From Ignavibacteriota bacterium (GTDB lineage: Bacteria > Bacteroidota > Ignavibacteria > UBA10030 > UBA6906), in assembly GCA_963801355.1 (NCBI GenBank), contig CAWDEM010000004.1:384001-448000 (forward strand): a stretch of DNA of 64,000 bases, in the 5' to 3' direction. Each line of letters begins with the position of its first letter. The stretch's first letter is position 1. The translations under genes were made by a program, and so were the position numbers. The notes beneath the pieces are model-generated. The model ran no database searches and was not told the origin of the DNA. It saw only the letters and a list, made by a program, of their open reading frames with translations. Positions 1,758-17,568 of this stretch are shown in pieces.

Positions 1758-3038
1758 ATGTGCGGAGATCAGAAACACATTGTAGTTATCGGCGGCGGCG
1801 GTGCAGGTATCATGGCTGCGTGGCGCGCGGCCACAAGAGGTTGTCCTGTGCTCCTCCTCGAACGGAACGGCCGTTTGGGCCAGAAAATCCTGATCTCCGG
1901 CGGCGGGAAATGTAATGTCACTCATGAAGGTACCGTAGAGGATATCCTTGCCGCATTCGTTGTGCCGGAACGCCGGTTCTTGAAACCCGCCCTCCACCGC
2001 TTTGGCAATCGGGATCTGGAGGCACTGCTTGCTGCCGGCGGAATCATCGTCGCCCCGCGGGCCAACGGACGAGTCTTCCCCGTGAATGGAACGGCAAAAG
2101 ACGTCATGAGGGTATTCTCTCATCTTCTTGCCGCACACAACGTCACCGTGAAGTTTCATCAGAGAGTGGAAGAGATTCTCACAGATGATCGCGGCGTGTG
2201 CGGCGTCCGGATGCATCGTACCGTGATCAGCGCACCCCGGGTGATTCTCTCCACCGGCGGCGCGTCCTACCCGCAGACCGGAACCACAGGAGACGGATTT
2301 GCATTTGCGCGGGCTCTCGGACACACGGTTGTGCCCGTGCGTGCCGCCCTTGCGCCGATCCAGCCGGATCCTCCACTTCCGGGTGGCTGGCGCGGCGTGG
2401 CGATTCGGGGAGGATCGCTCTCTGCCGTCCACCGCGGCAGGGAGATCGCCCGTCTGGAGGATGACATCCTGTTCACGCACGAAGGCCTGTCAGGTCCTGC
2501 GACCCTGGGGATCAGCCGTGCCGCGGCGCTTGCTGCGGAATCAGGCACGGTCTCGATGTTTCTGGATTTCTTTCCCCGGAAGGAAGCTGCAGTTCTGGAT
2601 GAGGAACTCCAGGCCGTGATCCGGACACACCGGGGCCGGATGGTGGCGACGCTTCTGGAGCCATGGCTGCCGAACCGGATCATTGAGGGAGTTCTCCGTT
2701 CGGCAGGGGTTGACCCGGAGACCCGCGGTCACGTGTTGACGCGCAAAGATCGTGGCGCGATCATCAGGGTCCTCAAACGATGGCCACTAGGAGACGTTGC
2801 GTGTGTGCCCGTCGAGAGAGGCGAAGTGACGGCCGGCGGTATTGCTCTCGGGGAGGTGAACTCGCGCACCATGTGTTCCCGGCGAATCAGGGGGCTGTAT
2901 GTCTGCGGTGAAGTGCTGGACATCGCCGGCCCCATCGGGGGCTACAACCTTCAAGCGGCGTTTTCCACGGGGTTCGTTGCCGGTGACAGTGCGGCCGACG
3001 AATTTCTGCGGGCTGCCCGATATCCGGATACTATCTGA
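1758..3038 (+). CDS. BaiN/YhiN (HI0933) family NAD(P)/FAD-dependent oxidoreductase
   Basis: GGGGAG FAD motif, GQKILISGGGKCNVT, TGGASYPQTGTTGDG, LFTHEGLSGP, VTAGG, GGYNLQAAFSTG. Confidence 0.92.
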   Translation: MCGDQKHIVVIGGGGAGIMAAWRAATRGCPVLLLERNGRLGQKILISGGGKCNVTHEGTVEDILAAFVVPERRFLKPALHRFGNRDLEALLAAGGIIVAPRANGRVFPVNGTAKDVMRVFSHLLAAHNVTVKFHQRVEEILTDDRGVCGVRMHRTVISAPRVILSTGGASYPQTGTTGDGFAFARALGHTVVPVRAALAPIQPDPPLPGGWRGVAIRGGSLSAVHRGREIARLEDDILFTHEGLSGPATLGISRAAALAAESGTVSMFLDFFPRKEAAVLDEELQAVIRTHRGRMVATLLEPWLPNRIIEGVLRSAGVDPETRGHVLTRKDRGAIIRVLKRWPLGDVACVPVERGEVTAGGIALGEVNSRTMCSRRIRGLYVCGEVLDIAGPIGGYNLQAAFSTGFVAGDSAADEFLRAARYPDTI

Positions 3039-4992
3039 CCAGCATCATCTTTCGCGTGGTGACGAATCCGTCGGCAACGAGCTGGTACAGATACAAGCCG
3101 CTCGCCAGCACTGTCCCGTCAAATGTCACCGTGTACTCACCTGCCGGCTGTCTCTCGTTCACGAGCACTGCGACCTCCCTACCCAGCATGTCGTACACCG
3201 CGAGCCTCACCCAACTCGTGCCCAGTGCCTCGTGCCCAGTGCCTGCTGCCAGCAGGCTGTACCGTATTGTCGTACTTGGATTGAATGGATTCGGATAGTT
3301 CTGCAAGAGAGCGGTCTGCACCGGCGAGCCGGCCGGCGCATCGACAGCAGTCGGGTATGATGCAGTCATGATAAAATCCACATCCTCGACAGCGAATGTG
3401 TTGGAAGGGATTGTGACAGGGGCCTGAACGTGATTGAACCGGAAGCGATCTGCGAGCAACGTTACCGGTCCGCTCCCGAGTGCTTCCACGGCATACCGGC
3501 CCGCCGGATCGCTCATTCCGTACCCGATGATGGTACCGTCCACGGCACGCGCCAGGACGCGAACCCCGGGCAGCGGGGCGCTGTTCCCGGTGAGGATGTG
3601 TCCCCGTATCCGGGTGAGACCGGCATTGTTCAGGGGCGGTACGGATATCCGTATGTGAGGTGTAACGCCATTGACCGCGACGCTGTCGGCATCGAGCCAT
3701 GTGAGCGCGCTGGCACCTGAGGACGTTGAGTAAGACGGGGCATAGTCACCAAAGGGAATGGCAAGGACATTGTAGCTCCCGGCCTCGATGTCTTCAACCA
3801 GAAAGACGCCGCTAGAGTCAGTGAAGGTGAAGACCGCCGGTCGCTCGACTCCTTCTTTCGGCCGCGGAAACAGGATTATGCGCGCGGGAACATCGTTGCC
3901 ACCGGGTTCCTGCACGGTGCCCTGCATGGTGCCGGTATCGGTTGGAGCTTTCTTCCTGAGGGAGAAGGTGATGCCGGTTGTGTCTCCCCGTACCGCAAGG
4001 ATTGTCGCCTCTGTCGGATCGGGGGCATTATCAAAGAACTCAGGATAGTAGCCGCTCTTTGACGACATCGCGACATACAGCCGGTTGCCGGCGACCTGGG
4101 CAAAGAACTTGCCTGCGGTGTTTGTATAGCCGAACCACGCCACGCCGCGGGAATAACCGACGCCCGGTATGTGCACGGCCTCGGGTCCCTCGGTCGATGA
4201 CAATGTTGCAGCTGATGTGACGAGCTCCTGGATCGGACGGAAAAACGCGACAACTGCACCTTCGATGGGTGTCCCCTGATCGTCCGTCACAATGCCGCTC
4301 ACGTAGGCATAGAGCCGCGGGGAGTTCGGCACAAGGGAAAAGTCCACCCGGGTGGTATCGTTGACCCTGACGGTGACCGGTGTGGCGTTCGCCGGCTCGG
4401 TTGCACCAAGATACCACTGTGTCTGGTGGCCGGTATTTGATACCGACGTCGGCGGTTCTTCCGCACGCACGAGATAGGCACCGGTATCGACGACGGCGGA
4501 GAACGTGCCGGCAGAATTCACTGTTATGTCGAGTCCGCGATTAGCGGGCGAGGGCAATTTGAAGAAGCGGACGACGACCTTCGGGATGGGGAGGCCGGAA
4601 ACCTTATCCGTGATTCTTCCTGTAATGATACCTTTGGGTCCCGGAGGAAGCGCAAAGGCGCGCACGCTGGCGATATTGCTCCATAGCGACTCGAGGAGTA
4701 CGGTGTCATTCTTCGCGACCGCGGTGACGACATAGTTGTAGAGCACTCCGGGAGTGACCGACTGATCCACGAACTGGCGTGTCACGCTGATAGCGATCCA
4801 CTGGAAGTTCGTCGTGTCCGGCGAAGACCGGTAGACCTTGTAGAATGAAGTTCCGGCAGGGCCGCTCCAGCTCAGGATCACAGAAGGCTGGAGGGATGCA
4901 GGAGAATTTGCCTGCAAGTTCGTGGGCGCCTGTGCGACCATCGTGGCTGCAAAGGAAATCAGCGCAAGGACTGTACCGATCACAAGTTTCAT
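3031..4992 (-). CDS. Secreted protein: FnIII-like N-terminus, carboxypeptidase-regulatory-like repeats, T9SS-type C-terminal sorting domain
   Basis: Signal peptide MKLVIGTVLALISFAATMVAQ; repeated GxIxGxVTD..G.PI motifs; C-terminal LLQNYPNPFNPSTTI...LASGLYLYQL...KMMLVR. Confidence 0.8.
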   Translation of the reverse strand: MKLVIGTVLALISFAATMVAQAPTNLQANSPASLQPSVILSWSGPAGTSFYKVYRSSPDTTNFQWIAISVTRQFVDQSVTPGVLYNYVVTAVAKNDTVLLESLWSNIASVRAFALPPGPKGIITGRITDKVSGLPIPKVVVRFFKLPSPANRGLDITVNSAGTFSAVVDTGAYLVRAEEPPTSVSNTGHQTQWYLGATEPANATPVTVRVNDTTRVDFSLVPNSPRLYAYVSGIVTDDQGTPIEGAVVAFFRPIQELVTSAATLSSTEGPEAVHIPGVGYSRGVAWFGYTNTAGKFFAQVAGNRLYVAMSSKSGYYPEFFDNAPDPTEATILAVRGDTTGITFSLRKKAPTDTGTMQGTVQEPGGNDVPARIILFPRPKEGVERPAVFTFTDSSGVFLVEDIEAGSYNVLAIPFGDYAPSYSTSSGASALTWLDADSVAVNGVTPHIRISVPPLNNAGLTRIRGHILTGNSAPLPGVRVLARAVDGTIIGYGMSDPAGRYAVEALGSGPVTLLADRFRFNHVQAPVTIPSNTFAVEDVDFIMTASYPTAVDAPAGSPVQTALLQNYPNPFNPSTTIRYSLLAAGTGHEALGTSWVRLAVYDMLGREVAVLVNERQPAGEYTVTFDGTVLASGLYLYQLVADGFVTTRKMMLVR

Positions 4993-11599: not shown

Positions 11600-12850
11600 T
11601 CACGAGAGTGCCTGTGTAATCCACGTGAGGTTTTGCAGTGGTATGAACCCGTAATTATAGAAGTTGAAACTGGTGATCCCCTGTGCACGTGCCACCCTCA
11701 TCCGGTCAAGGAATTCCGCCTGTCCGCCGCTCTCCGGGAGGCCGACCTGGAATCCGAGCGTCAGCGCGTTTTTCCCGAGGAGAGACCGGAGTGCGGTCAG
11801 CGGGGCATCCAGAGCAACACCGTCTTTGACATAGCCCAGGGCAAGAATCCCCCCCGTTGTGCGGGCACTGGTGGCGGGGTCGACACCGTTCAGCTTCCAC
11901 GCCGCAGAATCAATCGACATCATTTGCCGCAGCGGGACAGTTCCGGCACTCGACTTCAATTCCTCGAGGAGTGATTGGACGACGCCGGTGCGCCAGCGCT
12001 GGAACGGCTCCAGGATGTCCGCCGGGAGTTTATCAATGGTGGGGTACCTGGCGTTCGTTGAGTCCGGATCACGGAAGAATTCCTCGAGCGTGGCAGTGGT
12101 GAAATTGAGTGCCGGATGGATGTCGAATCCCGATTCCTTCGCCGAGCGGCGGCATGCGGCACAGAAACAGAGCCCCAGGAGAAACCGTGTCGCCGCTGTC
12201 AATGCCATTCCTTCCCGTTCATGATGAAAGCCATGCGTGTATCCCTGAAACTGGAGAGCCTCGAGCTCGATGAGGTCGACACCGTGCGCGGCGATATCCG
12301 CAACGAGGGAACCGAGATACCGGCGCACATCGCCGTTCGACGGGCAGAGATTATGATAGAGCGGATCGTCGAATGCGGTGCGCGTGACCAGGTCCGGATG
12401 TGCCATGCCGAGGGCGGTATTGTGACAGCATACCACCCAGCTCCGCAGCTGCATGCCGTGTTGGTCTGCTTGCCGGCGCGCTTCCCGGAGATCGTGCCCC
12501 GAAGACACAAGGGAGTGTGCCACCGGGGCTATGCGTCCGTACAGAGATGCTGTGGGCCGGAACATGACCGTGCCATCCTCGAGAAAGACCACCTTGCGCC
12601 GGGGATTGTGCGGGGCGAGAAATTTGCCGGCATGATACGCTGTGGCAAGACTGATGGAAGTGAGACCGTGTTCGCGGAGCCGCGGCATGACAACATCATA
12701 GCCTTCGTCGACGAGATCCCAAAGATATATCCACATGGATGCCGCCTGCCGGGTCGGCGGCGGGAATGCCGCGGTCGCGGCATAGCGCAGAGCAGGTCCG
12801 GCCACCACTGCGGCGGCGACCCGTTCCAGGAATTCTCTCCGTGTGAGCAT
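11600..12850 (-). CDS. Tat-exported TIM-barrel protein, glycoside-hydrolase-like, function unknown
   Basis: MLTRREFL twin-arginine signal; SLATAYHAG, LCPSN, CFCAAC Cys cluster; begins 7 nt after the upstream stop. Confidence 0.6.
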   Translation of the reverse strand: MLTRREFLERVAAAVVAGPALRYAATAAFPPPTRQAASMWIYLWDLVDEGYDVVMPRLREHGLTSISLATAYHAGKFLAPHNPRRKVVFLEDGTVMFRPTASLYGRIAPVAHSLVSSGHDLREARRQADQHGMQLRSWVVCCHNTALGMAHPDLVTRTAFDDPLYHNLCPSNGDVRRYLGSLVADIAAHGVDLIELEALQFQGYTHGFHHEREGMALTAATRFLLGLCFCAACRRSAKESGFDIHPALNFTTATLEEFFRDPDSTNARYPTIDKLPADILEPFQRWRTGVVQSLLEELKSSAGTVPLRQMMSIDSAAWKLNGVDPATSARTTGGILALGYVKDGVALDAPLTALRSLLGKNALTLGFQVGLPESGGQAEFLDRMRVARAQGITSFNFYNYGFIPLQNLTWITQALS

Positions 12851-12857
12851 GGTGCGG

Positions 12858-13895
12858 TTACTCCTCGTCGATGACCCAGAGGTCGAGCAGGTTGTCGGGC
12901 ATTCCCGCGATGAATCGCGATGGTTTGGAAAGCACCAATCCCGACTCGCGGTCATAGACATTGATGGGATAGGCGATGAAGAGATGCTCTTTGGCCCGGG
13001 TGCAGGCAACGTACATCAAACGGCGCTCCTCCTCCATCGTGTCTTCATTTAATGCCGCACGCGTCGTGGGGAAGCGCCCGTCGAGCGCGTAGATCACGAA
13101 GACCGTGTTCCACTCGAGCCCCTTCGCGCTGTGGATCGTGGAGAGAATGAGCTTTTCGTCTTCTGCGTCGGTGGGCGTGATGTCGGCAACGCTCTCGGCC
13201 GCCGGTTCGAGTGTCAGATCGGCAAGGAAGGAATTGAGCGTCCGGTACCGCTCGGCGATTTGCTGGAACATCTCCAGATCCTTCCGCCGTTTGTTGTGAT
13301 CGTCATACCGTTTGACAAAGACCGGCTCGTAGTACTGCAGGAGCTGCTGGATTTTGTCGGCGGGCGTGATGTGCGACGGAGCGACACCCTTCAGTGCTTC
13401 GAAAAGCGTGCGGAGTTTCTCCGGTGCGGCATGGTATTGGCCCCAGAATGCCGGGAGCGAAGTGGGGATCCCGGCTCCGCCTGCTGAACGGTGCCGGGCA
13501 AGGAGGTCCTCGATCACCTTTTCGGCCGTACGCGGGCCGACGCCGTCAACGAGCAACAGAATCCGATTCCAGGCGACGGCATCGCGGGGATTTTCGATCA
13601 CGCGGAGATAGGAAATCAGGTCTTTGATATGAGCGGTTTCGATGAACTTGAACCCCCCGAACTTGACGAACGGAATGTTCGCCTTGTTCAGCTCGATTTC
13701 CAGGTCGAACGAGAGATAACTCGAACGGAACAGCACAGCCATGTCATCGAGGGGGATCCCCTGCTCCCGCAGTTCAAGGACCTTCTGGATCACAAAACGC
13801 GACTGAAGATTTTCATTCTGTGCGACGACAATGCTGGGCAACTCGCCGCCGGGTTTGCTGGTGAAGAGCTCTTTGGTGTATTTGTGACGTTTCAT
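12858..13895 (-). CDS. UvrD/PcrA-family helicase, C-terminal half (2A/2B domains)
   Basis: AVLFRS, GGFKFIETAHIKD, GVGPRT, LSTIHSAKGLEW (motif V), EEERRLMYVACTRAKE (motif VI), PSRF; ATG overlaps the upstream TGA (ATGA). Confidence 0.88.
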   Translation of the reverse strand: MKRHKYTKELFTSKPGGELPSIVVAQNENLQSRFVIQKVLELREQGIPLDDMAVLFRSSYLSFDLEIELNKANIPFVKFGGFKFIETAHIKDLISYLRVIENPRDAVAWNRILLLVDGVGPRTAEKVIEDLLARHRSAGGAGIPTSLPAFWGQYHAAPEKLRTLFEALKGVAPSHITPADKIQQLLQYYEPVFVKRYDDHNKRRKDLEMFQQIAERYRTLNSFLADLTLEPAAESVADITPTDAEDEKLILSTIHSAKGLEWNTVFVIYALDGRFPTTRAALNEDTMEEERRLMYVACTRAKEHLFIAYPINVYDRESGLVLSKPSRFIAGMPDNLLDLWVIDEE

Positions 13896-14794
13896 GATGC
13901 CCCGGAATGTCCGAACCGCTTGCGTAGCAGTGCAATGTACGCGGGTGTCGTGCCGCAACATCCGCCGATAATGCGCACTCCTTGCTGCCTCCATTGTTCG
14001 GCGAATTCGGCGTACTCTCCGGATGACACATCATGCACAAAGGTCTCCGCGCGTTCTTCCCCGGCTCTGCCGACGTTTGCATAGACGGCGAGAGGCAGGG
14101 GAGTGGCCGCTTGTAAGGCAAGAAGTGCCGGGGCTATGCGACGCGGAGAAATACAGTTGAGGGAGAATGCCGCGGGCGTGAGCCGGGTGATTGTCCTTAC
14201 GGCTTCCGCGATGGATTCACCGCCGTACAATACCCCATCCGCAGTGCATAAGAAACTGACCACCACCTCTTTGCCGGTGTCCATGGCGGCGCGGCAGGCG
14301 GCCCCGGCTTCCCTGATGGTGCCCATTGTCTCGAGCAGCAGGAAATCCACACCGGCCTCGGCCAACCGGCGGGCATGGAGGGAGTGCTCGCCGCGGAGCG
14401 CATCATCGTCCGGCACCAGGTCCGGGCGGTAGCAGTCTTCCAGGGGGGCCATGGAACCGGCGATCAGAATTGTGCGTCCCGTGCACTCTGCCCGCGCCTG
14501 CCGGGCCAGCGTTACCGCTTCACGCGTGACTGCTTCCGAACGGTCGGGCCAGCCGGCGTGAACGCATGCCCGGGACGTGGTCCTGAAGGTGTTTGTGGTA
14601 ATGATATCTGCACCCGCCGCGAGATATTCCCGGTGTATCTGCAGCACAAGCGGTGGATCGGTAGTCAGGGCGCGTGCGGACCAGAGGGGCTGACTGACAT
14701 CGAGGCCGCGCCGCTGCAACTCGGTCCCCATCGCGCCATCGAGAATAAGCTCTCCGGAGCGCTGCAAGGCTGTGTGCAGAGGGCCCGCCGTCAT
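13892..14794 (-). CDS. Homocysteine S-methyltransferase family protein (MmuM/BHMT-like)
   Basis: ILDGAMGTEL, PLWSA, AGADIITTNTF, IAGSMAP, LLLETM, LNC and IIGGCCGTTP Zn-ligand motifs; AGGAGG RBS. Confidence 0.9.
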   Translation of the reverse strand: MTAGPLHTALQRSGELILDGAMGTELQRRGLDVSQPLWSARALTTDPPLVLQIHREYLAAGADIITTNTFRTTSRACVHAGWPDRSEAVTREAVTLARQARAECTGRTILIAGSMAPLEDCYRPDLVPDDDALRGEHSLHARRLAEAGVDFLLLETMGTIREAGAACRAAMDTGKEVVVSFLCTADGVLYGGESIAEAVRTITRLTPAAFSLNCISPRRIAPALLALQAATPLPLAVYANVGRAGEERAETFVHDVSSGEYAEFAEQWRQQGVRIIGGCCGTTPAYIALLRKRFGHSGAS

Positions 14795-15786
14795 GCGCGC
14801 GCCCTCCTGAGAATCTCGTTGGTCAGATTCAAAATCGGTTGGGTGCTGCGATAGTTCTCTTCGAGCGTGATGATAGTGCAGCCGGGGTAGTCTTCGGGAA
14901 ACGTGAGGATATTCCGCACAGTCGCACCGCGGAAGGAGTAGATAGCCTGGGAGTCATCCCCTACCACCATCACATTGCCATGCTGCTGCGAGAGCAGCCG
15001 CACAATGTCCGCCTGGATGCGATTGGTGTCCTGAAATTCGTCCACCATGATGTATTTGTAGCGCTGTGCGAGCGTCCGCCGGACATGGTCATTGTCCCGC
15101 AGGAGTTGCCGGAGATACAGCAGCAGGTCGTCATAGTCCATCAGGTTGTGTTGTGCCTTGTATTCTTCGAAGGCACGCTGCAGGGCTGTGATGTCGTTCA
15201 GGAGTTCCTCGAAGTGCGGGTACTCTTCGTGCAGGATCTCTTTGATGGGCGTTGCCGTATTGACCGCCTTCGAAAAGATATCATAGAGAGTCTGTTTTCT
15301 TGGAAAACGCCTTTCACGCGTGTCCAGTTTCAACTTTGTACGCAGGAGGTTGACGACATCTTCCGCGTCGGACTGATCGACGATGCTGAAGGAGGAATCG
15401 AACCCGATCAATGGAGCGTATTGTCGCAGGACAAGGTTTGCAAACGAATGGAACGTCCCGCCGGCGACTTTCTCGCACCGGGCATCCAGGAGCATAGAAG
15501 CACGACGGAGCATTTCCTGTGCGGCGCGCCGGGTGAACGTGAGCAGGAGAATCGATTCGGGGTTCACGCCGAGTTCAACGAGATAGGCGACGCGGAAAGT
15601 AATGGTCCGTGTTTTTCCGGTGCCAGCGCCCGCGATGATCAGGTGGGGTCCGTTCGCCGAGGTGACCGCGGCGTATTGTGCCGGATTCAGTTCGTTCCGG
15701 TAGTTGATGCGAAATTGCCGGGGCGGTTCCGTCGGCACAAGGTCGACCGGCTGCTTCTTGAGGACGTATTTCTTGGCGTCGGTCAC
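14791..15786 (-). CDS. UvrD/PcrA-family helicase, N-terminal half (1A/1B domains)
   Basis: LNPAQ (Q motif), AGAGTGKT (Walker A), LTFTRRAA, TFHSF, VDEFQDTN (Walker B), VGDDSQAIYSFRGA, LEENYRS, then a stop. Confidence 0.88.
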   Translation of the reverse strand: MTDAKKYVLKKQPVDLVPTEPPRQFRINYRNELNPAQYAAVTSANGPHLIIAGAGTGKTRTITFRVAYLVELGVNPESILLLTFTRRAAQEMLRRASMLLDARCEKVAGGTFHSFANLVLRQYAPLIGFDSSFSIVDQSDAEDVVNLLRTKLKLDTRERRFPRKQTLYDIFSKAVNTATPIKEILHEEYPHFEELLNDITALQRAFEEYKAQHNLMDYDDLLLYLRQLLRDNDHVRRTLAQRYKYIMVDEFQDTNRIQADIVRLLSQQHGNVMVVGDDSQAIYSFRGATVRNILTFPEDYPGCTIITLEENYRSTQPILNLTNEILRRARA

Positions 15787-16787
15787 AGCTTCTCTACCGG
15801 ATAGCTGTCCAGAATATCCAGAATGGCTTCGATGGTTTTCGGCGAATTGCCTTCGGCGCGATTGTTGATGTAGGCGTAGAGTTTCTTCCCCTCCCGGGCG
15901 CAGCGGATGGCGGCTTCCGCAACGCCGGAGCGTATGGCGGGATTGACTTCCTTGATCGTATCGTACGGCTGGAAATATTCGACCGCCTCCTGATAGGTAC
16001 GGCCGGGTTTGAGCAGCGCGCGGATGACAGCAAAGGATGCCGGCAGAATATCCGCGCTGCCGATCTGTTCCTGAATCCCCGGCATCCTGGTCCAGCTGTT
16101 GAGCACATGCGCAATACCGTGGCTCTTGAGCATGGCAAGATAGTCCGGTGTCAGGAATTCGCTGTTGCGGATTTCGACACTGTAGGTGTACTCTCCCGGG
16201 ATCTTTGCGAAGAAGGCATCCAGCGCCCGGATGAAGACGGGCAAGGTCACTCCGGAATCCCGGGAAAAAGTGGAGAACTCAAAGATGATTGCTCCGCATT
16301 TCTGCCGTAATGTACTGACCGGGCCAAGAAACTGATCGGCAAAAAGTGAAGGATTCAGAAAATCGGTGTTCTCTTTTCCCGCATGAGCGCCATAGCGCGG
16401 CAGATTTGGATATCGCTTCACGGTGATGCGGTCGGTGACCTTGAGTGCGATGCTGAAGTGCTCCGGAGTCTGATCGTGCATCAGCCCCAGGGCCTTCGCA
16501 GAGGGGAAATCGTAGAGCGCGAAGTCAGCGCATACAGTAGGAAACAGGGTTGCGTATTCTGCGAGACAGGTCTGTTCGAACACGCGTTGTGAGGGGTAGG
16601 GGCGGTTGTAGACGATTCCCTGCCATCCGGGGTATTTCCAGGATGACGTGCCCAGCAGGATGCCGCGCTCGGCCCAGCGGCGAAGCCGGCCGGCATTGGA
16701 ACGGGCATAGGACGACAGAGGGGGCTCAGCGCCCCCTGTCTCGAACAGCGGCAGTTGTGTGCCGCGCGGGAGTTTGTGTACACGCAC
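15783..16787 (-). CDS. DUF72 (YecE-like) TIM-barrel protein
   Basis: LGTSSWKYPGWQG..Y, LAEYA..FPTV, SIALKV, EIRN, YINN..EGNSP; stop overlaps the GTG of the helicase N-half (GTGA). Confidence 0.85.
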   Translation of the reverse strand: MRVHKLPRGTQLPLFETGGAEPPLSSYARSNAGRLRRWAERGILLGTSSWKYPGWQGIVYNRPYPSQRVFEQTCLAEYATLFPTVCADFALYDFPSAKALGLMHDQTPEHFSIALKVTDRITVKRYPNLPRYGAHAGKENTDFLNPSLFADQFLGPVSTLRQKCGAIIFEFSTFSRDSGVTLPVFIRALDAFFAKIPGEYTYSVEIRNSEFLTPDYLAMLKSHGIAHVLNSWTRMPGIQEQIGSADILPASFAVIRALLKPGRTYQEAVEYFQPYDTIKEVNPAIRSGVAEAAIRCAREGKKLYAYINNRAEGNSPKTIEAILDILDSYPVEKL

Positions 16788-16809
16788 CTCGACCCGCCCT
16801 TCCCGTTGG

Positions 16810-17568
16810 TTATCCTCCCAGGTGCACGCCGGTGAGCACGGTGAACACGGACCAGACAATCCAGAGTGCAAACACCAGCACCAGCACCTTTGGCAGATGG
16901 CGCTGGAAGAGTTTTGACAGCCCGATGCTCACGACGGTGAGATCCCAGATAGTGAAAACATTCGCTTTTGACAGCGCCATATGCAGTTTGTTCTGGAGGT
17001 CGTAGTTGGACACAAACAGGGCGAGATTGGGTCCTGCGAACAACGAATCCATACCGTACTGTAGCAGCGTTGTCGCGACGGTTTCCAGGATGCTGATGTA
17101 GAAAGTCAGGCCGACGACTTCGACGACTTTCATATACGGGGCGCTCGCGTTCATTCCCCATTTGCCGAGCAGCCAGTACACCAGGGAAAGCAGGAACAGG
17201 GCGACCGGGGTAACGAGGGTAACGCCGACAGCCGATTGGATGCGGAAGATCATGGAATCCGGCCGCATGAACTCTGTCGCTTTTTCAGCCTGCTCGGCGG
17301 TCATTTTCCCTTGTGCCACGGCTTCATCGATGCTTTTCGTCATCAACGAGGCCATCTGATCGACGAGAGACGGGTTCGTGAGGATAAGCTGGTTCAAGAG
17401 CACGGCGATGAGGATGAACAGCAGCATCGGCACCAACCAGTTGCGTGTGGTTTTTCCGGTCAGCCGGACATTGTCGAACAGTTCTCCCGGTGCCGCAAAA
17501 ATATTCACGATTTGTTCGGTGATAGACATTGGCGCTACTGTTGCGCCGGGGGCGGTGGACTCTTCCAT
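16810..17568 (-). CDS. Yip1-family membrane protein
   Basis: NIFAAPGELF...WLVP, multiple TM helices, NVFTIW...IGLS pattern. Confidence 0.75.
   Translation of the reverse strand: MEESTAPGATVAPMSITEQIVNIFAAPGELFDNVRLTGKTTRNWLVPMLLFILIAVLLNQLILTNPSLVDQMASLMTKSIDEAVAQGKMTAEQAEKATEFMRPDSMIFRIQSAVGVTLVTPVALFLLSLVYWLLGKWGMNASAPYMKVVEVVGLTFYISILETVATTLLQYGMDSLFAGPNLALFVSNYDLQNKLHMALSKANVFTIWDLTVVSIGLSKLFQRHLPKVLVLVFALWIVWSVFTVLTGVHLGG

What the first reader, a model, noticed from the sequence alone, without database searches (positions are those of the whole stretch)
12858..15786. UvrD/PcrA helicase split in two by a nested, intact homocysteine S-methyltransferase gene
Seen: the N-half carries motifs Q to IV and ends LEENYRSTQPILNLTNEILRRARA*. 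The C-half starts MKRHKYTKELFTSK and carries motifs V and VI. Removing 13887-14796 (910 nt) yields the seamless in-frame sequence ILRRARHKYTKELFT. The insert is essentially just a full HMT ORF, with no transposase, terminal repeats, intein or intron hallmarks. Both junctions are ATGA stop/start overlaps, and the helicase's AGG AGG codons form the HMT Shine-Dalgarno. Both halves keep all catalytic motifs. Knowledge: SF1A helicases are normally one chain with the ATP site between 1A and 2A, and the break falls just past motif IV near that boundary. Inference: a functional two-subunit helicase made stoichiometrically by translational coupling through a metabolic gene, or less likely rejoined by RNA splicing or long-range ribosomal bypass (Arg CGC to CGT). 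I know of no described example.
Basis: partly seen in the sequence, partly recalled or inferred. Interest (0 to 1): 0.9.

Follow-up and report, generated by a model that had tools for sequence, protein, structure and literature searches.

The report
Split helicase hosting a lodger gene
A DNA-unwinding enzyme that is normally one protein is encoded here, and in a whole order of Ignavibacteria-type bacteria, as two separate genes, and in this family an unrelated methionine-metabolism gene has settled between the two halves.

Summary
On the minus strand lie a UvrD/PcrA-like N-half (14791-15786), a complete homocysteine S-methyltransferase (HMT, 13892-14794) and the helicase C-half (12858-13895), joined by ATGA stop/start overlaps. 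It is not an assembly artefact.

The interpretation needs correcting. HMT is probably not what split the helicase. The gene is broken at the same loop in every family of the order sampled that carries it, except one, which has it fused. HMT lies between the halves only in the window's own family. Elsewhere the gap holds a lipoprotein gene, small ORFs, a 23S-IVP gene or nothing. In some genomes the halves lie 12.9 kb apart or on different contigs. Outside the order the orthologue is one 650-720 aa protein.

Both halves are under strong purifying selection (dN/dS 0.03-0.25) and keep their motif residues. The break falls in a low-confidence loop after the motif IV helix. A complex prediction joins the halves (0.89, best control 0.00).

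Best reading: an obligate two-subunit SF1A helicase from an old gene fission, with HMT as a family-specific lodger in a tightly packed operon. Splicing, ribosomal bypass, an intein and a pseudogene are rejected. I found no published description.

The parts
15783..16871 (-). DUF72-family gene (362 aa), first gene of the packed block. Its TGA overlaps the GTG start of the helicase N-half (GTGA).
   Evidence: Pfam PF01904 1.5e-28. Found upstream of the N-half in 19 of the 20 f1 loci fetched and in 0 of the 40 loci from other families.
14791..15786 (-). Helicase N-subunit (331 aa): domains 1A/1B plus the strand and helix carrying motif IV, which structurally belong to domain 2A. Ends 4 residues past the orthologous break point.
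   Evidence: PF00580 2.7e-76. Matches PcrA profile positions 3-295 of 725. Invariant Walker A, DE(F/Y)QD, GDDxQxIYxFRG and ENxRS residues in 30 rows. dN/dS 0.025-0.110.
14803..14808 (-). AGGAGG inside the last codons of the N-half, 8 nt before the HMT ATG; Shine-Dalgarno-like.
   Evidence: Read; listed. GGAGG or GGAGA is present at the same place in most f1 loci that have the 4-nt overlap.
13892..14794 (-). Stand-alone homocysteine S-methyltransferase (300 aa), the lodger gene. ATGA overlaps at both ends.
   Evidence: PF02574 5.8e-70, full length. NCBIfam PRK09485 197 bits against a cut-off of 215. Cys121, 214, 279 and 280 invariant in 16 of 16 f1 copies. dN/dS 0.11-0.25. The orthologue occurs only in family f1.
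12858..13895 (-). Helicase C-subunit (345 aa): the rest of domain 2A plus 2B, with motifs IVa, V and VI. Its own ATG aligns with the C-half starts of relatives.
   Evidence: PF13361 3.9e-50. Matches PcrA profile 299-637 of 725. Invariant T-H-S-A-K-G-L-E and Y-V-A-x-T-R in 30 rows. dN/dS 0.030-0.247.
11600..12850 (-). Next co-directional ORF (416 aa, N-terminus MLTRREFLER...). It starts 7 nt after the C-half stop and may be the last gene of the same operon.
   Evidence: No Pfam family at E<=0.01. No terminator-like site between 12858 and 16871 on the minus strand (weak evidence).

Best explanation
The locus encodes an obligate heterodimeric SF1A (UvrD/PcrA/Rep-like) helicase produced by an old gene fission. 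That fission is shared by an order of Ignavibacteria-type Bacteroidota.

The N-subunit supplies domains 1A/1B: Walker A and B, motif III, and the motif IV strand and helix. The C-subunit supplies the rest of 2A plus 2B, with motifs V and VI. The last ~25 residues of the N-subunit dock into the C-subunit's 2A domain, so the ATP cleft is rebuilt across two chains.

The break lies in a flexible surface loop. The space between the two genes has since been occupied by different genes in different families. In the window's family the occupant is an ordinary stand-alone homocysteine S-methyltransferase.

In the window, DUF72, N-half, HMT and C-half are chained by 4-nt stop/start overlaps, so they are probably co-transcribed and translationally coupled.

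Shown: the anatomy, the distribution, the selection and the position of the break. Inferred: assembly, activity, coupling and the order of events.
For: (1) The break is order-wide. 132 of 201 genomes of the order have the orthologue at E<=1e-90. In the 60 loci I fetched, 58 are broken at the same alignment position and 2 (family f4) are fused.

(2) The gap content varies.
- f1, 20 loci: N/HMT/C in 16; one more with frame disruptions; one with HMT lost; two with the C-half elsewhere.
- Other families, 40 loci: 11 carry one homologous ~265-aa lipoprotein gene (27-59% identity; weak Exo_endo_phos match).
- 2 carry two small ORFs.
- 1 carries a 23S-rRNA-IVP gene (PF05635).
- 3 have gaps of 170-341 nt.
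- 21 have the halves abutting (-4 to +105 nt) in differing frames.

(3) The halves can be unlinked. In G024 the C-half lies 12.9 kb downstream of HMT, with seven ORFs of 315-1042 aa on both strands between them. In G016 and G079 the C-half is on another contig, intact at 75-76% identity.

(4) Outside the order the orthologue is one frame of about 650-720 aa: the phylum search and 31 loci titled Kryptonium, Omnitrophota, Chlorobiota and others.

(5) Purifying selection: N 0.025-0.110 (18 pairs), C 0.030-0.247 (16 pairs). Motif residues are invariant in 30 rows of each half.

(6) The halves are lost together: genus g20 lacks the N-half (0 of 12) and the C-half (0 of 3 tested).

(7) The break maps between PcrA residues ~307 and 308. 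In the AlphaFold model of the fused orthologue it lies in loop 324-343, with pLDDT below 50 at 328-330, between helix 312-323 and strand 344-348.

(8) Complex prediction: 0.89 (runs 0.89, 0.80, 0.89), best of 3 controls 0.00. That mark was reached by 58 of 80 solved complexes and 2 of 110 mismatched pairs. The runs agree in at least 95% of contacts and the partner's pLDDT is at least 79. N residues 305-331 pack on C residues 2-20 and 284-305.

(9) The arrangement is not a misassembly. It recurs in many independent assemblies, and contigs of other runs bridge both junctions: X1 13669-14300, X1 14649-15069, X2 14620-14969.
Against: There is no direct evidence of expression, assembly or activity. 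No RNA data set was available.

The complex score may only reflect likeness to solved single-chain PcrA/UvrD/Rep structures, and my own alignments were used, so the calibration holds only roughly.

The genome also has an intact 753-aa-frame UvrD paralogue, so the split enzyme is not needed for canonical UvrD functions and its own role is unknown.

Three of the 60 loci show frame disruptions (L041, L042, L078). These are either decay or assembly error.

Many dN/dS pairs have dS above 1, so their ratios are approximate.

The overlaps are not universal: a 4-nt N/HMT overlap in 9 of 16 f1 loci and an HMT/C overlap in 8 of 16. Strict coupling is therefore not conserved.
Confidence: 0.85

Rival explanations
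1. Origin by insertion: a gene landing inside an intact helicase gene caused the fission. The candidates are HMT in this lineage, or the lipoprotein gene earlier. The abutting forms would then be secondary losses of the insert. This rival concerns origin only; it is compatible with a two-subunit enzyme today.
For: Three families (f1, f2, f5) carry a co-directional gene exactly at the break. The lipoprotein insert of f2 and f5 is one family, as diverged (27-59% identity) as an old vertically inherited gene would be. Basal relationships in the trees are unresolved.
Against: For HMT specifically: the HMT orthologue occurs only in f1 (14 of 14 f1 genomes, 0 of 66 others), while the break is shared by f2, f3, f5, f7 and f8. 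The HMT-bearing rows form a single derived clade (C-half tree 99*; N-half tree 91). For any insert: 21 of 40 non-f1 loci have nothing between the halves, and no insertion scars or repeats are seen.
Confidence: 0.25
2. The halves are rejoined into one chain by RNA splicing, protein splicing or long-range ribosomal bypass.
For: In the window, deleting 910 nt restores a colinear frame.
Against: The gap between N stop and C start varies from -4 to 1231 nt, and the relative frame differs between relatives. The C-half has its own ATG, GTG or TTG at the homologous position in 56 of the 57 split loci parsed. The halves lie 12.9 kb apart or on different contigs in three genomes. Rfam gave 0 matches, so no group I or II intron. 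The insert is a complete HMT with no Hint/intein domain. The supposed take-off and landing codons differ (CGC and CGT).
Confidence: 0.01
3. The split gene is a decaying relic (pseudogene) made redundant by the intact UvrD paralogue.
For: An intact paralogue exists. 3 of 60 loci show frame disruptions. The whole gene is missing in genera g20 and g16 of f1.
Against: Both halves are open and complete in 55 of the 58 split loci fetched. dN/dS is 0.03-0.25. Catalytic residues are invariant. The split state persists down to ~57% amino-acid identity across the order.
Confidence: 0.03
4. DUF72, the two helicase subunits and HMT form one functional DNA-damage module in f1, with the HMT-fold zinc-thiolate enzyme acting in repair rather than in methionine metabolism.
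For: The D-N-H-C order, with overlapping stops and starts, is kept across genera of f1. DUF72 is described as a TIM barrel related to UV-damage endonuclease and enriched near polB2 (passage read in PMC11791011). It was predicted computationally to be an endonuclease-type repair protein (PMC3828134 and PMC4939058, abstracts in the listing).
Against: The HMT orthologue persists in genus g20 (7 of 7), which lacks both helicase halves, with no DUF72 within about 4 kb. In G016, HMT lies 9.2 kb from the N-half. HMT evolves faster than the helicase. It matches the metabolic HMT models over their full length. Other families manage without it.
Confidence: 0.05

Closest known systems
PcrA / UvrD / Rep (single-chain SF1A helicases; PDB 1pjr, 2is1, 1uaa)
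   Same: Same fold and motif set. The fused orthologue matches PcrA 1pjr at 1.2e-104 over residues 28-656, and also UvrD and Rep. The halves together cover PcrA profile positions 3-637 of 725.
   Different: Two polypeptides instead of one. All scores fall below the NCBIfam equivalog cut-offs for pcrA, uvrD and rep (for example 478 bits against 911 for the fused form). The C-terminal ~85 profile positions are missing. It is a paralogue beside a canonical 753-aa-frame UvrD.
PcrA crystallised as separate fragments (PDB 1qhh, chains named 'PCRA (SUBUNIT)')
   Same: An SF1A helicase deposited as separate chains of 167 and 273 aa (listing). This suggests a nicked core can stay assembled.
   Different: An experimental product, not a genetic split, and the chain ends lie at other positions. 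That the chains arose by proteolysis is my recollection, not a call result.
Gene fission / naturally split genes of prokaryotes (for example the split reverse gyrase of Nanoarchaeum equitans; recalled, not from a call)
   Same: One ancestral enzyme is encoded by two genes whose products reassemble. The halves may become unlinked in the genome.
   Different: Here the cut runs through a RecA-like domain (2A) of an SF1A motor, not between domains. It is fixed across an order, and the gap has been colonised by several unrelated genes.
AddAB / RecBCD heteromeric SF1 machines
   Same: Multi-subunit enzymes built from UvrD-like modules. AddA and RecB models give weak matches.
   Different: In those, each subunit carries its own complete (or degenerate) two-domain motor. 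Here a single motor is divided between two chains.
Split inteins (DnaE) and phage T4 gene 60 bypass (recalled)
   Same: An interrupted coding sequence for one functional protein.
   Different: No Hint domain, no conserved take-off or landing site, variable gaps and unlinked halves. This is not the mechanism here.

Membership tests
UvrD/PcrA/Rep-like SF1A helicase | N-terminal UvrD-helicase domain (PF00580) and C-terminal UvrD_C domain (PF13361) | tested here: met
   PF00580 2.7e-76 on the N-half and PF13361 3.9e-50 on the C-half.
UvrD/PcrA/Rep-like SF1A helicase | Conserved motif residues: Walker A GxGKT, DExQD, GDxxQxIYxFRGA, NYRS, TxHxxKGLE and YVxxTRA (motif names recalled) | tested here: met
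   These residues are invariant in 30 of 30 rows of alignments A1 and A2.
UvrD/PcrA/Rep-like SF1A helicase | A single polypeptide carrying both RecA-like domains | tested here: not met
   A stop after residue 331 and a separate start for the C-half. The same holds in 58 of 60 fetched loci.
PcrA, UvrD or Rep proper (NCBIfam equivalogs TIGR01073, TIGR01075, TIGR01074) | Score above the curated equivalog cut-off | tested here: not met
   The fused orthologue scores 478, 390 and 369 bits against cut-offs of 911, 1144 and 951. The halves score lower.
Homocysteine S-methyltransferase (PF02574) | Full-length match to the domain | tested here: met
   5.8e-70, profile positions 1-282 of 283.
Homocysteine S-methyltransferase (PF02574) | Zinc-binding cysteine triad (one Cys plus a CC pair; recalled feature) | tested here: met
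   Cys214, Cys279 and Cys280 are invariant in 16 of 16 f1 copies. Zinc binding itself was not tested.
NCBIfam PRK09485 homocysteine S-methyltransferase (equivalog) | Score above the cut-off of 215 bits | tested here: not met
   197.2 bits: close to the cut-off but below it.
Intein-interrupted gene | A Hint/intein splicing domain, in frame with both exteins | tested here: not met
   The only Pfam family in the insert is S-methyl_trans. The insert lies in a different frame with its own stop and start.
Group I or II intron-interrupted gene | An intron RNA structure | tested here: not met
   0 Rfam matches at E<=1 over 12500-17000 on both strands.
Programmed translational bypass (T4 gene 60 type; recalled) | Matched take-off and landing codons and a conserved short gap in cis | tested here: not met
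   The codons differ (CGC and CGT). Gaps range from -4 to 1231 nt, and the halves are unlinked in three genomes.
Mobile-element insertion | A transposase or integrase, terminal repeats or target-site duplication | tested here: not met
   No flanking repeats. The insert is a single HMT ORF.

The most novel reading that the evidence does not exclude
The fission point of this helicase has become a privileged slot. Any gene lodged there is read through, by translational coupling, on the way to the second subunit, so the lodger both rides on and gates the stoichiometry of the motor.

In the window's family the four chained genes (DUF72, N-subunit, HMT, C-subunit) would form a dedicated DNA-damage module. 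In it, the HMT-fold zinc-thiolate enzyme has a repair-linked role, for example handling methyl groups in alkylation damage, rather than a purely metabolic one.
Probability: 0.05. Interest if true: 0.8.

Novelty: new variant of a known kind. Interest (0 to 1): 0.5.

Why it matters
SF1A helicases such as PcrA, UvrD and Rep are textbook single-chain motors whose ATP site lies between two RecA-like domains. Here evolution has cut that motor inside domain 2A and kept it that way across a whole bacterial order. This implies that the two pieces reassemble reliably.

This gives enzymologists a natural split system. Subunits could be labelled or mutated separately, and ATP-site residues could be assigned to either chain. 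A fused sister form (family f4) is available as a control.

For genome evolution it is a clean case of gene fission followed by repeated colonisation of the new intergenic slot and, in some genomes, complete unlinking of the halves.

For annotation it is a warning. These ~330-aa and ~340-aa 'partial helicases' are neither pseudogenes nor assembly errors, and the gene between them did not necessarily cause the break.

Tried and rejected
Misassembly: rejected. The arrangement recurs in independent assemblies, and contigs from other runs bridge both junctions.

Intron or ribozyme: Rfam E-value scan, 0 matches.

Terminal repeats or target duplication: none at the junctions.

Promoter and terminator scan: 2 promoter-like sites against 2.0 expected, and 1 terminator-like site against 5.0 expected. 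None lies inside the block on the minus strand. This is uninformative for a lineage with a non-sigma-70-type consensus.

Expression: no RNA holder was listed for the stretch, so expression could not be examined. No run held more than 0.29 of the sampled words.

Polarity of the fused f4 form: unresolved.
- In the N-half tree, f4 sits in an open basal polytomy.
- Holding all 90 split rows together as one clade gave a tree 6.1 log-likelihood units better than the free search, with p-AU 0.587 (after two unfinished runs). A single fission after f4 diverged is therefore allowed.
- The C-half tree (LG+G4, quick search; 19 Omnitrophota-type rows left out for speed) nests f4 among split forms with unstarred support of 87-89, which would mean re-fusion.

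Whether the lipoprotein gene moved in or out of the slot: a 43%-identical homologue lies elsewhere in G154 (f8), weak ones in G111 and G039, none in the two f4 genomes and none in the window's own genome. This does not decide the question.

Independent fissions elsewhere: among the best 150 representatives for the N-half, 19 are shorter than 450 aa. I inspected 5 of them. One (P0013, 341 aa) ends just past the break position; four run on into C-half sequence and look like fragments or truncated or frameshifted forms. The library gives no origin for them, so I make no claim.

I could therefore not see earlier notes or the names public sources give these proteins. Paper supplements were not consulted.
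Full report
WHAT IS THERE

On the minus strand the window carries a packed block of genes:
- a DUF72 gene, 15783-16871;
- the N-half of a UvrD/PcrA-like helicase, 14791-15786 (331 aa);
- a complete homocysteine S-methyltransferase (HMT), 13892-14794 (300 aa);
- the helicase C-half, 12858-13895 (345 aa);
- seven nt further on, a 416-aa ORF with no Pfam family, 11600-12850.

Pfam assigns PF00580 (2.7e-76) to the N-half, PF02574 (5.8e-70, full length) to HMT and PF13361 (3.9e-50) to the C-half, and PF01904 to the upstream gene. The three upstream junctions are 4-nt stop/start overlaps: GTGA, ATGA, ATGA. AGGAGG lies 8 nt before the HMT start. Deleting 13887-14796 would give a frame colinear with fused orthologues.

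NOT AN ARTEFACT

The same N/HMT/C order is present in independent assemblies of relatives. Contigs of other public runs bridge both junctions: X1 13669-14300, X1 14649-15069 and X2 14620-14969.

THE SPLIT IS ORDER-WIDE AND OLDER THAN THE HMT INSERT

Record titles of the nearest relatives read Ignavibacteriae, Ignavibacteriota, Ignavibacteriales or Bacteroidota MAGs. With the N-half as query, 44 of 68 genomes of the family and 132 of 201 genomes of the order have an orthologue at E<=1e-90. Almost all of these lie in an open frame of about 330-400 aa that stops at query residue ~329-331.

I fetched 60 loci, 20 from the window's family f1 and 40 from other families. This was my own choice of loci, not a random sample. 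I parsed them.

In f1:
- 16 of 20 have N/HMT/C;
- 1 has that order but with frame disruptions (L041);
- 1 has lost HMT (L042);
- 2 have the C-half elsewhere.

In the other families:
- 2 of 40 (both from f4) are fused 663-aa genes;
- 11 (f2, f5) hold a ~265-aa lipoprotein gene between the halves;
- 2 (f3) hold two small ORFs;
- 1 holds a 23S-rRNA-IVP gene (PF05635);
- 3 have gaps of 170-341 nt;
- 21 have the halves abutting, -4 to +105 nt apart, in the same or different frames.

In 56 of the 57 split loci parsed, the C-half opens with its own start codon directly before the conserved (R)HKY.K.L(F/Y)T or YYKELYT block. The lipoprotein inserts are one homologous family (27-59% identity) with a weak Exo_endo_phos match.

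THE HALVES CAN DRIFT APART

In G024 the C-half lies 12.9 kb downstream of HMT, with seven ORFs of 315-1042 aa on both strands between them. In G016 and G079 it is on another contig and is intact at 75-76% identity. In G016, HMT itself lies 9.2 kb from the N-half.

OUTSIDE THE ORDER THE GENE IS WHOLE

In a sample of 301 genomes of the phylum, the listed matches from other orders and classes cover both halves in one frame of about 650-835 aa without stops. There are a few partial or stop-containing exceptions, such as G310. Of the 80 loci from genome contigs, 32 are fused. One of these is the f4 genome. The other 31 carry titles such as Kryptonium, Omnitrophota, Planctomycetales, Chlorobiota and two Ignavibacteri* records. 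In the N-half tree these 31, together with L153 (whose C-half could not be checked), form the clade opposite the order clade; both clades have 99* support.

TREES

The HMT-bearing rows form one clade: SH-aLRT 91 in the N-half tree and 99* in the C-half tree. The position of the fused f4 pair is unresolved.
- The N-half tree leaves it in a basal polytomy.
- A tree with all 90 split rows held together is 6.1 lnL units better than the free tree, p-AU 0.587, so a single fission after f4 diverged is allowed.
- The C-half tree nests f4 among split forms with unstarred support (87-89), which would mean re-fusion.

BOTH HALVES ARE FUNCTIONAL GENES

Pairwise Nei-Gojobori dN/dS over 19 pairs gave:
- N-half 0.025-0.110 (18 finite values);
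- C-half 0.030-0.247 (16 finite values);
- HMT 0.113-0.246 (11 values).

The least saturated pairs are own genome vs L023 (N 0.025, C 0.031, HMT 0.194) and L024 vs L026 (0.083, 0.117, 0.187). Many other pairs have dS above 1. In 30-row alignments the Walker A, DExQD, GDDxQxIYxFRG and ENxRS residues of the N-half, and the THSAKGLE and YVAxTR residues of the C-half, are invariant. The two halves are lost together in genus g20: N-half in 0 of 12 genomes and C-half in 0 of 3 tested.

WHERE THE CUT LIES

NCBIfam places the N-half on PcrA profile positions 3-295 and the C-half on 299-637 of 725. The fused orthologue aligns to PcrA 1pjr at 1.2e-104, and the break falls between PcrA residues ~307 and 308.

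The AlphaFold model of the fused orthologue (mean pLDDT 79) shows helix 312-323 (the motif IV helix), then loop 324-343 with pLDDT below 50 at 328-330, then strand 344-348. The break, between residues 327 and 328, is in that loop. The N-subunit therefore carries the first strand and helix of domain 2A.

In the complex prediction, N residues 305-331 pack on C residues 2-20 and 284-305, and Walker A and motif III residues face motif V and VI residues. The score is 0.89 (runs 0.89, 0.80, 0.89), with the best of 3 controls at 0.00. That mark was reached by 58 of 80 solved complexes and 2 of 110 mismatched pairs. The runs agree in at least 95% of contacts and the partner's pLDDT is at least 79. Single-chain homologues have been solved, so this pass may reflect that likeness. 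It shows the halves are compatible with the known fold, not that they bind.

REJOINING MECHANISMS ARE EXCLUDED

There are no Rfam matches, no Hint domain and no flanking repeats. Gap lengths and frames vary, and the halves are unlinked in three genomes.

THE HMT

It is a full-length stand-alone HMT with the expected cysteines invariant (Cys214, 279, 280 in 16 of 16 copies). It falls just under the PRK09485 cut-off (197 against 215 bits). It is one of four PF02574 genes in the genome.

Its orthologue (E<=1e-60) occurs in 14 of 14 other f1 genomes sampled and in 0 of 66 genomes of the other families. It persists in genus g20, which has lost the helicase, with no DUF72 gene within about 4 kb. It evolves faster than the helicase. 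All this points to a lodger rather than a partner.

COUPLING

In f1, a 4-nt N/HMT overlap occurs in 9 of 16 loci and an HMT/C overlap in 8 of 16. The other loci have -38 to +144 nt at those junctions. Coupling is plausible in the window but is not a conserved requirement.

COMPARISON AND NOVELTY

The enzyme works like PcrA, UvrD or Rep but fails the single-chain feature and the equivalog cut-offs. It is a paralogue beside a canonical UvrD. Gene fission as such is well known (recalled).

I found no description of a split UvrD/PcrA-type helicase, or of this locus, in four full-text searches:
- 'split helicase', 'UvrD', 'two polypeptides';
- 'gene fission', 'UvrD', 'helicase', 'split gene';
- 'Ignavibacteria', 'UvrD';
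- six 'split UvrD'-type phrases.

In PMC9318685 and PMC6390638 I read only the passages that mention UvrD. Neither mentions a split. The library lacks most subscription journals, and supplements were closed.

LIMITS

There are no expression, protein or activity data. The loci were chosen by me. The trees are quick searches. The polarity of f4 and the cause of the original fission remain open.

Noticed in passing
window 14052-14782: One 238-nt contig of a soil-metagenome run (X3, depth 9) joins 14052 directly to 14782. It skips 729 nt (243 codons, in frame) inside HMT (table 5). This is either a population variant with a gutted HMT or a short-contig artefact.
   Followed up: no
L041 (G054), L042 (G063), L078 (G132): Frame disruptions. 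N-half and HMT are in several frames in L041. L042 has no HMT, and its C-half is in two frames. The C-half is in three frames in L078. This is either decay of the split helicase in single genomes or assembly errors.
   Followed up: no
G199:C31:35570-36550 (+) and 88777-89757 (-): Two N-half matches with identical scores (E 1.0e-137, 62% identity) in inverted orientation, about 52 kb apart on one contig. This may be an inverted duplication of the locus.
   Followed up: no
window 11600-12850 (-): A 416-aa ORF starting 7 nt after the C-half stop. Its N-terminus MLTRREFLER... looks like a twin-arginine signal (my reading). It has no Pfam family at E<=0.01.
   Followed up: partly
G000:C4:1103254-1104126, 362051-362875, 1268589-1269407: Three further PF02574 (HMT-domain) genes in the window's genome. 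Two lie in open frames of 676 and 629 aa, so they are probably fused to other domains.
   Followed up: no
L074 (G112) 3030-3431 (-); also L106: A 133-aa 23S-rRNA-intervening-sequence protein gene (PF05635, 2.3e-34) sits between the helicase halves in these two related genomes.
   Followed up: partly
Genus g20 of family f1 (e.g. L167-L169, L172): These genomes keep the HMT orthologue (55-58% identity) but have neither helicase half nor a DUF72 gene within about 4 kb of it.
   Followed up: partly
G053:C3:278690-279673 and G052:C3:76146-77129: The N-half matches in these two genomes are reported with one TAG inside the match, which starts at query residue 3. The TAG is probably the upstream gene's stop just before the true start. 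I did not check.
   Followed up: no
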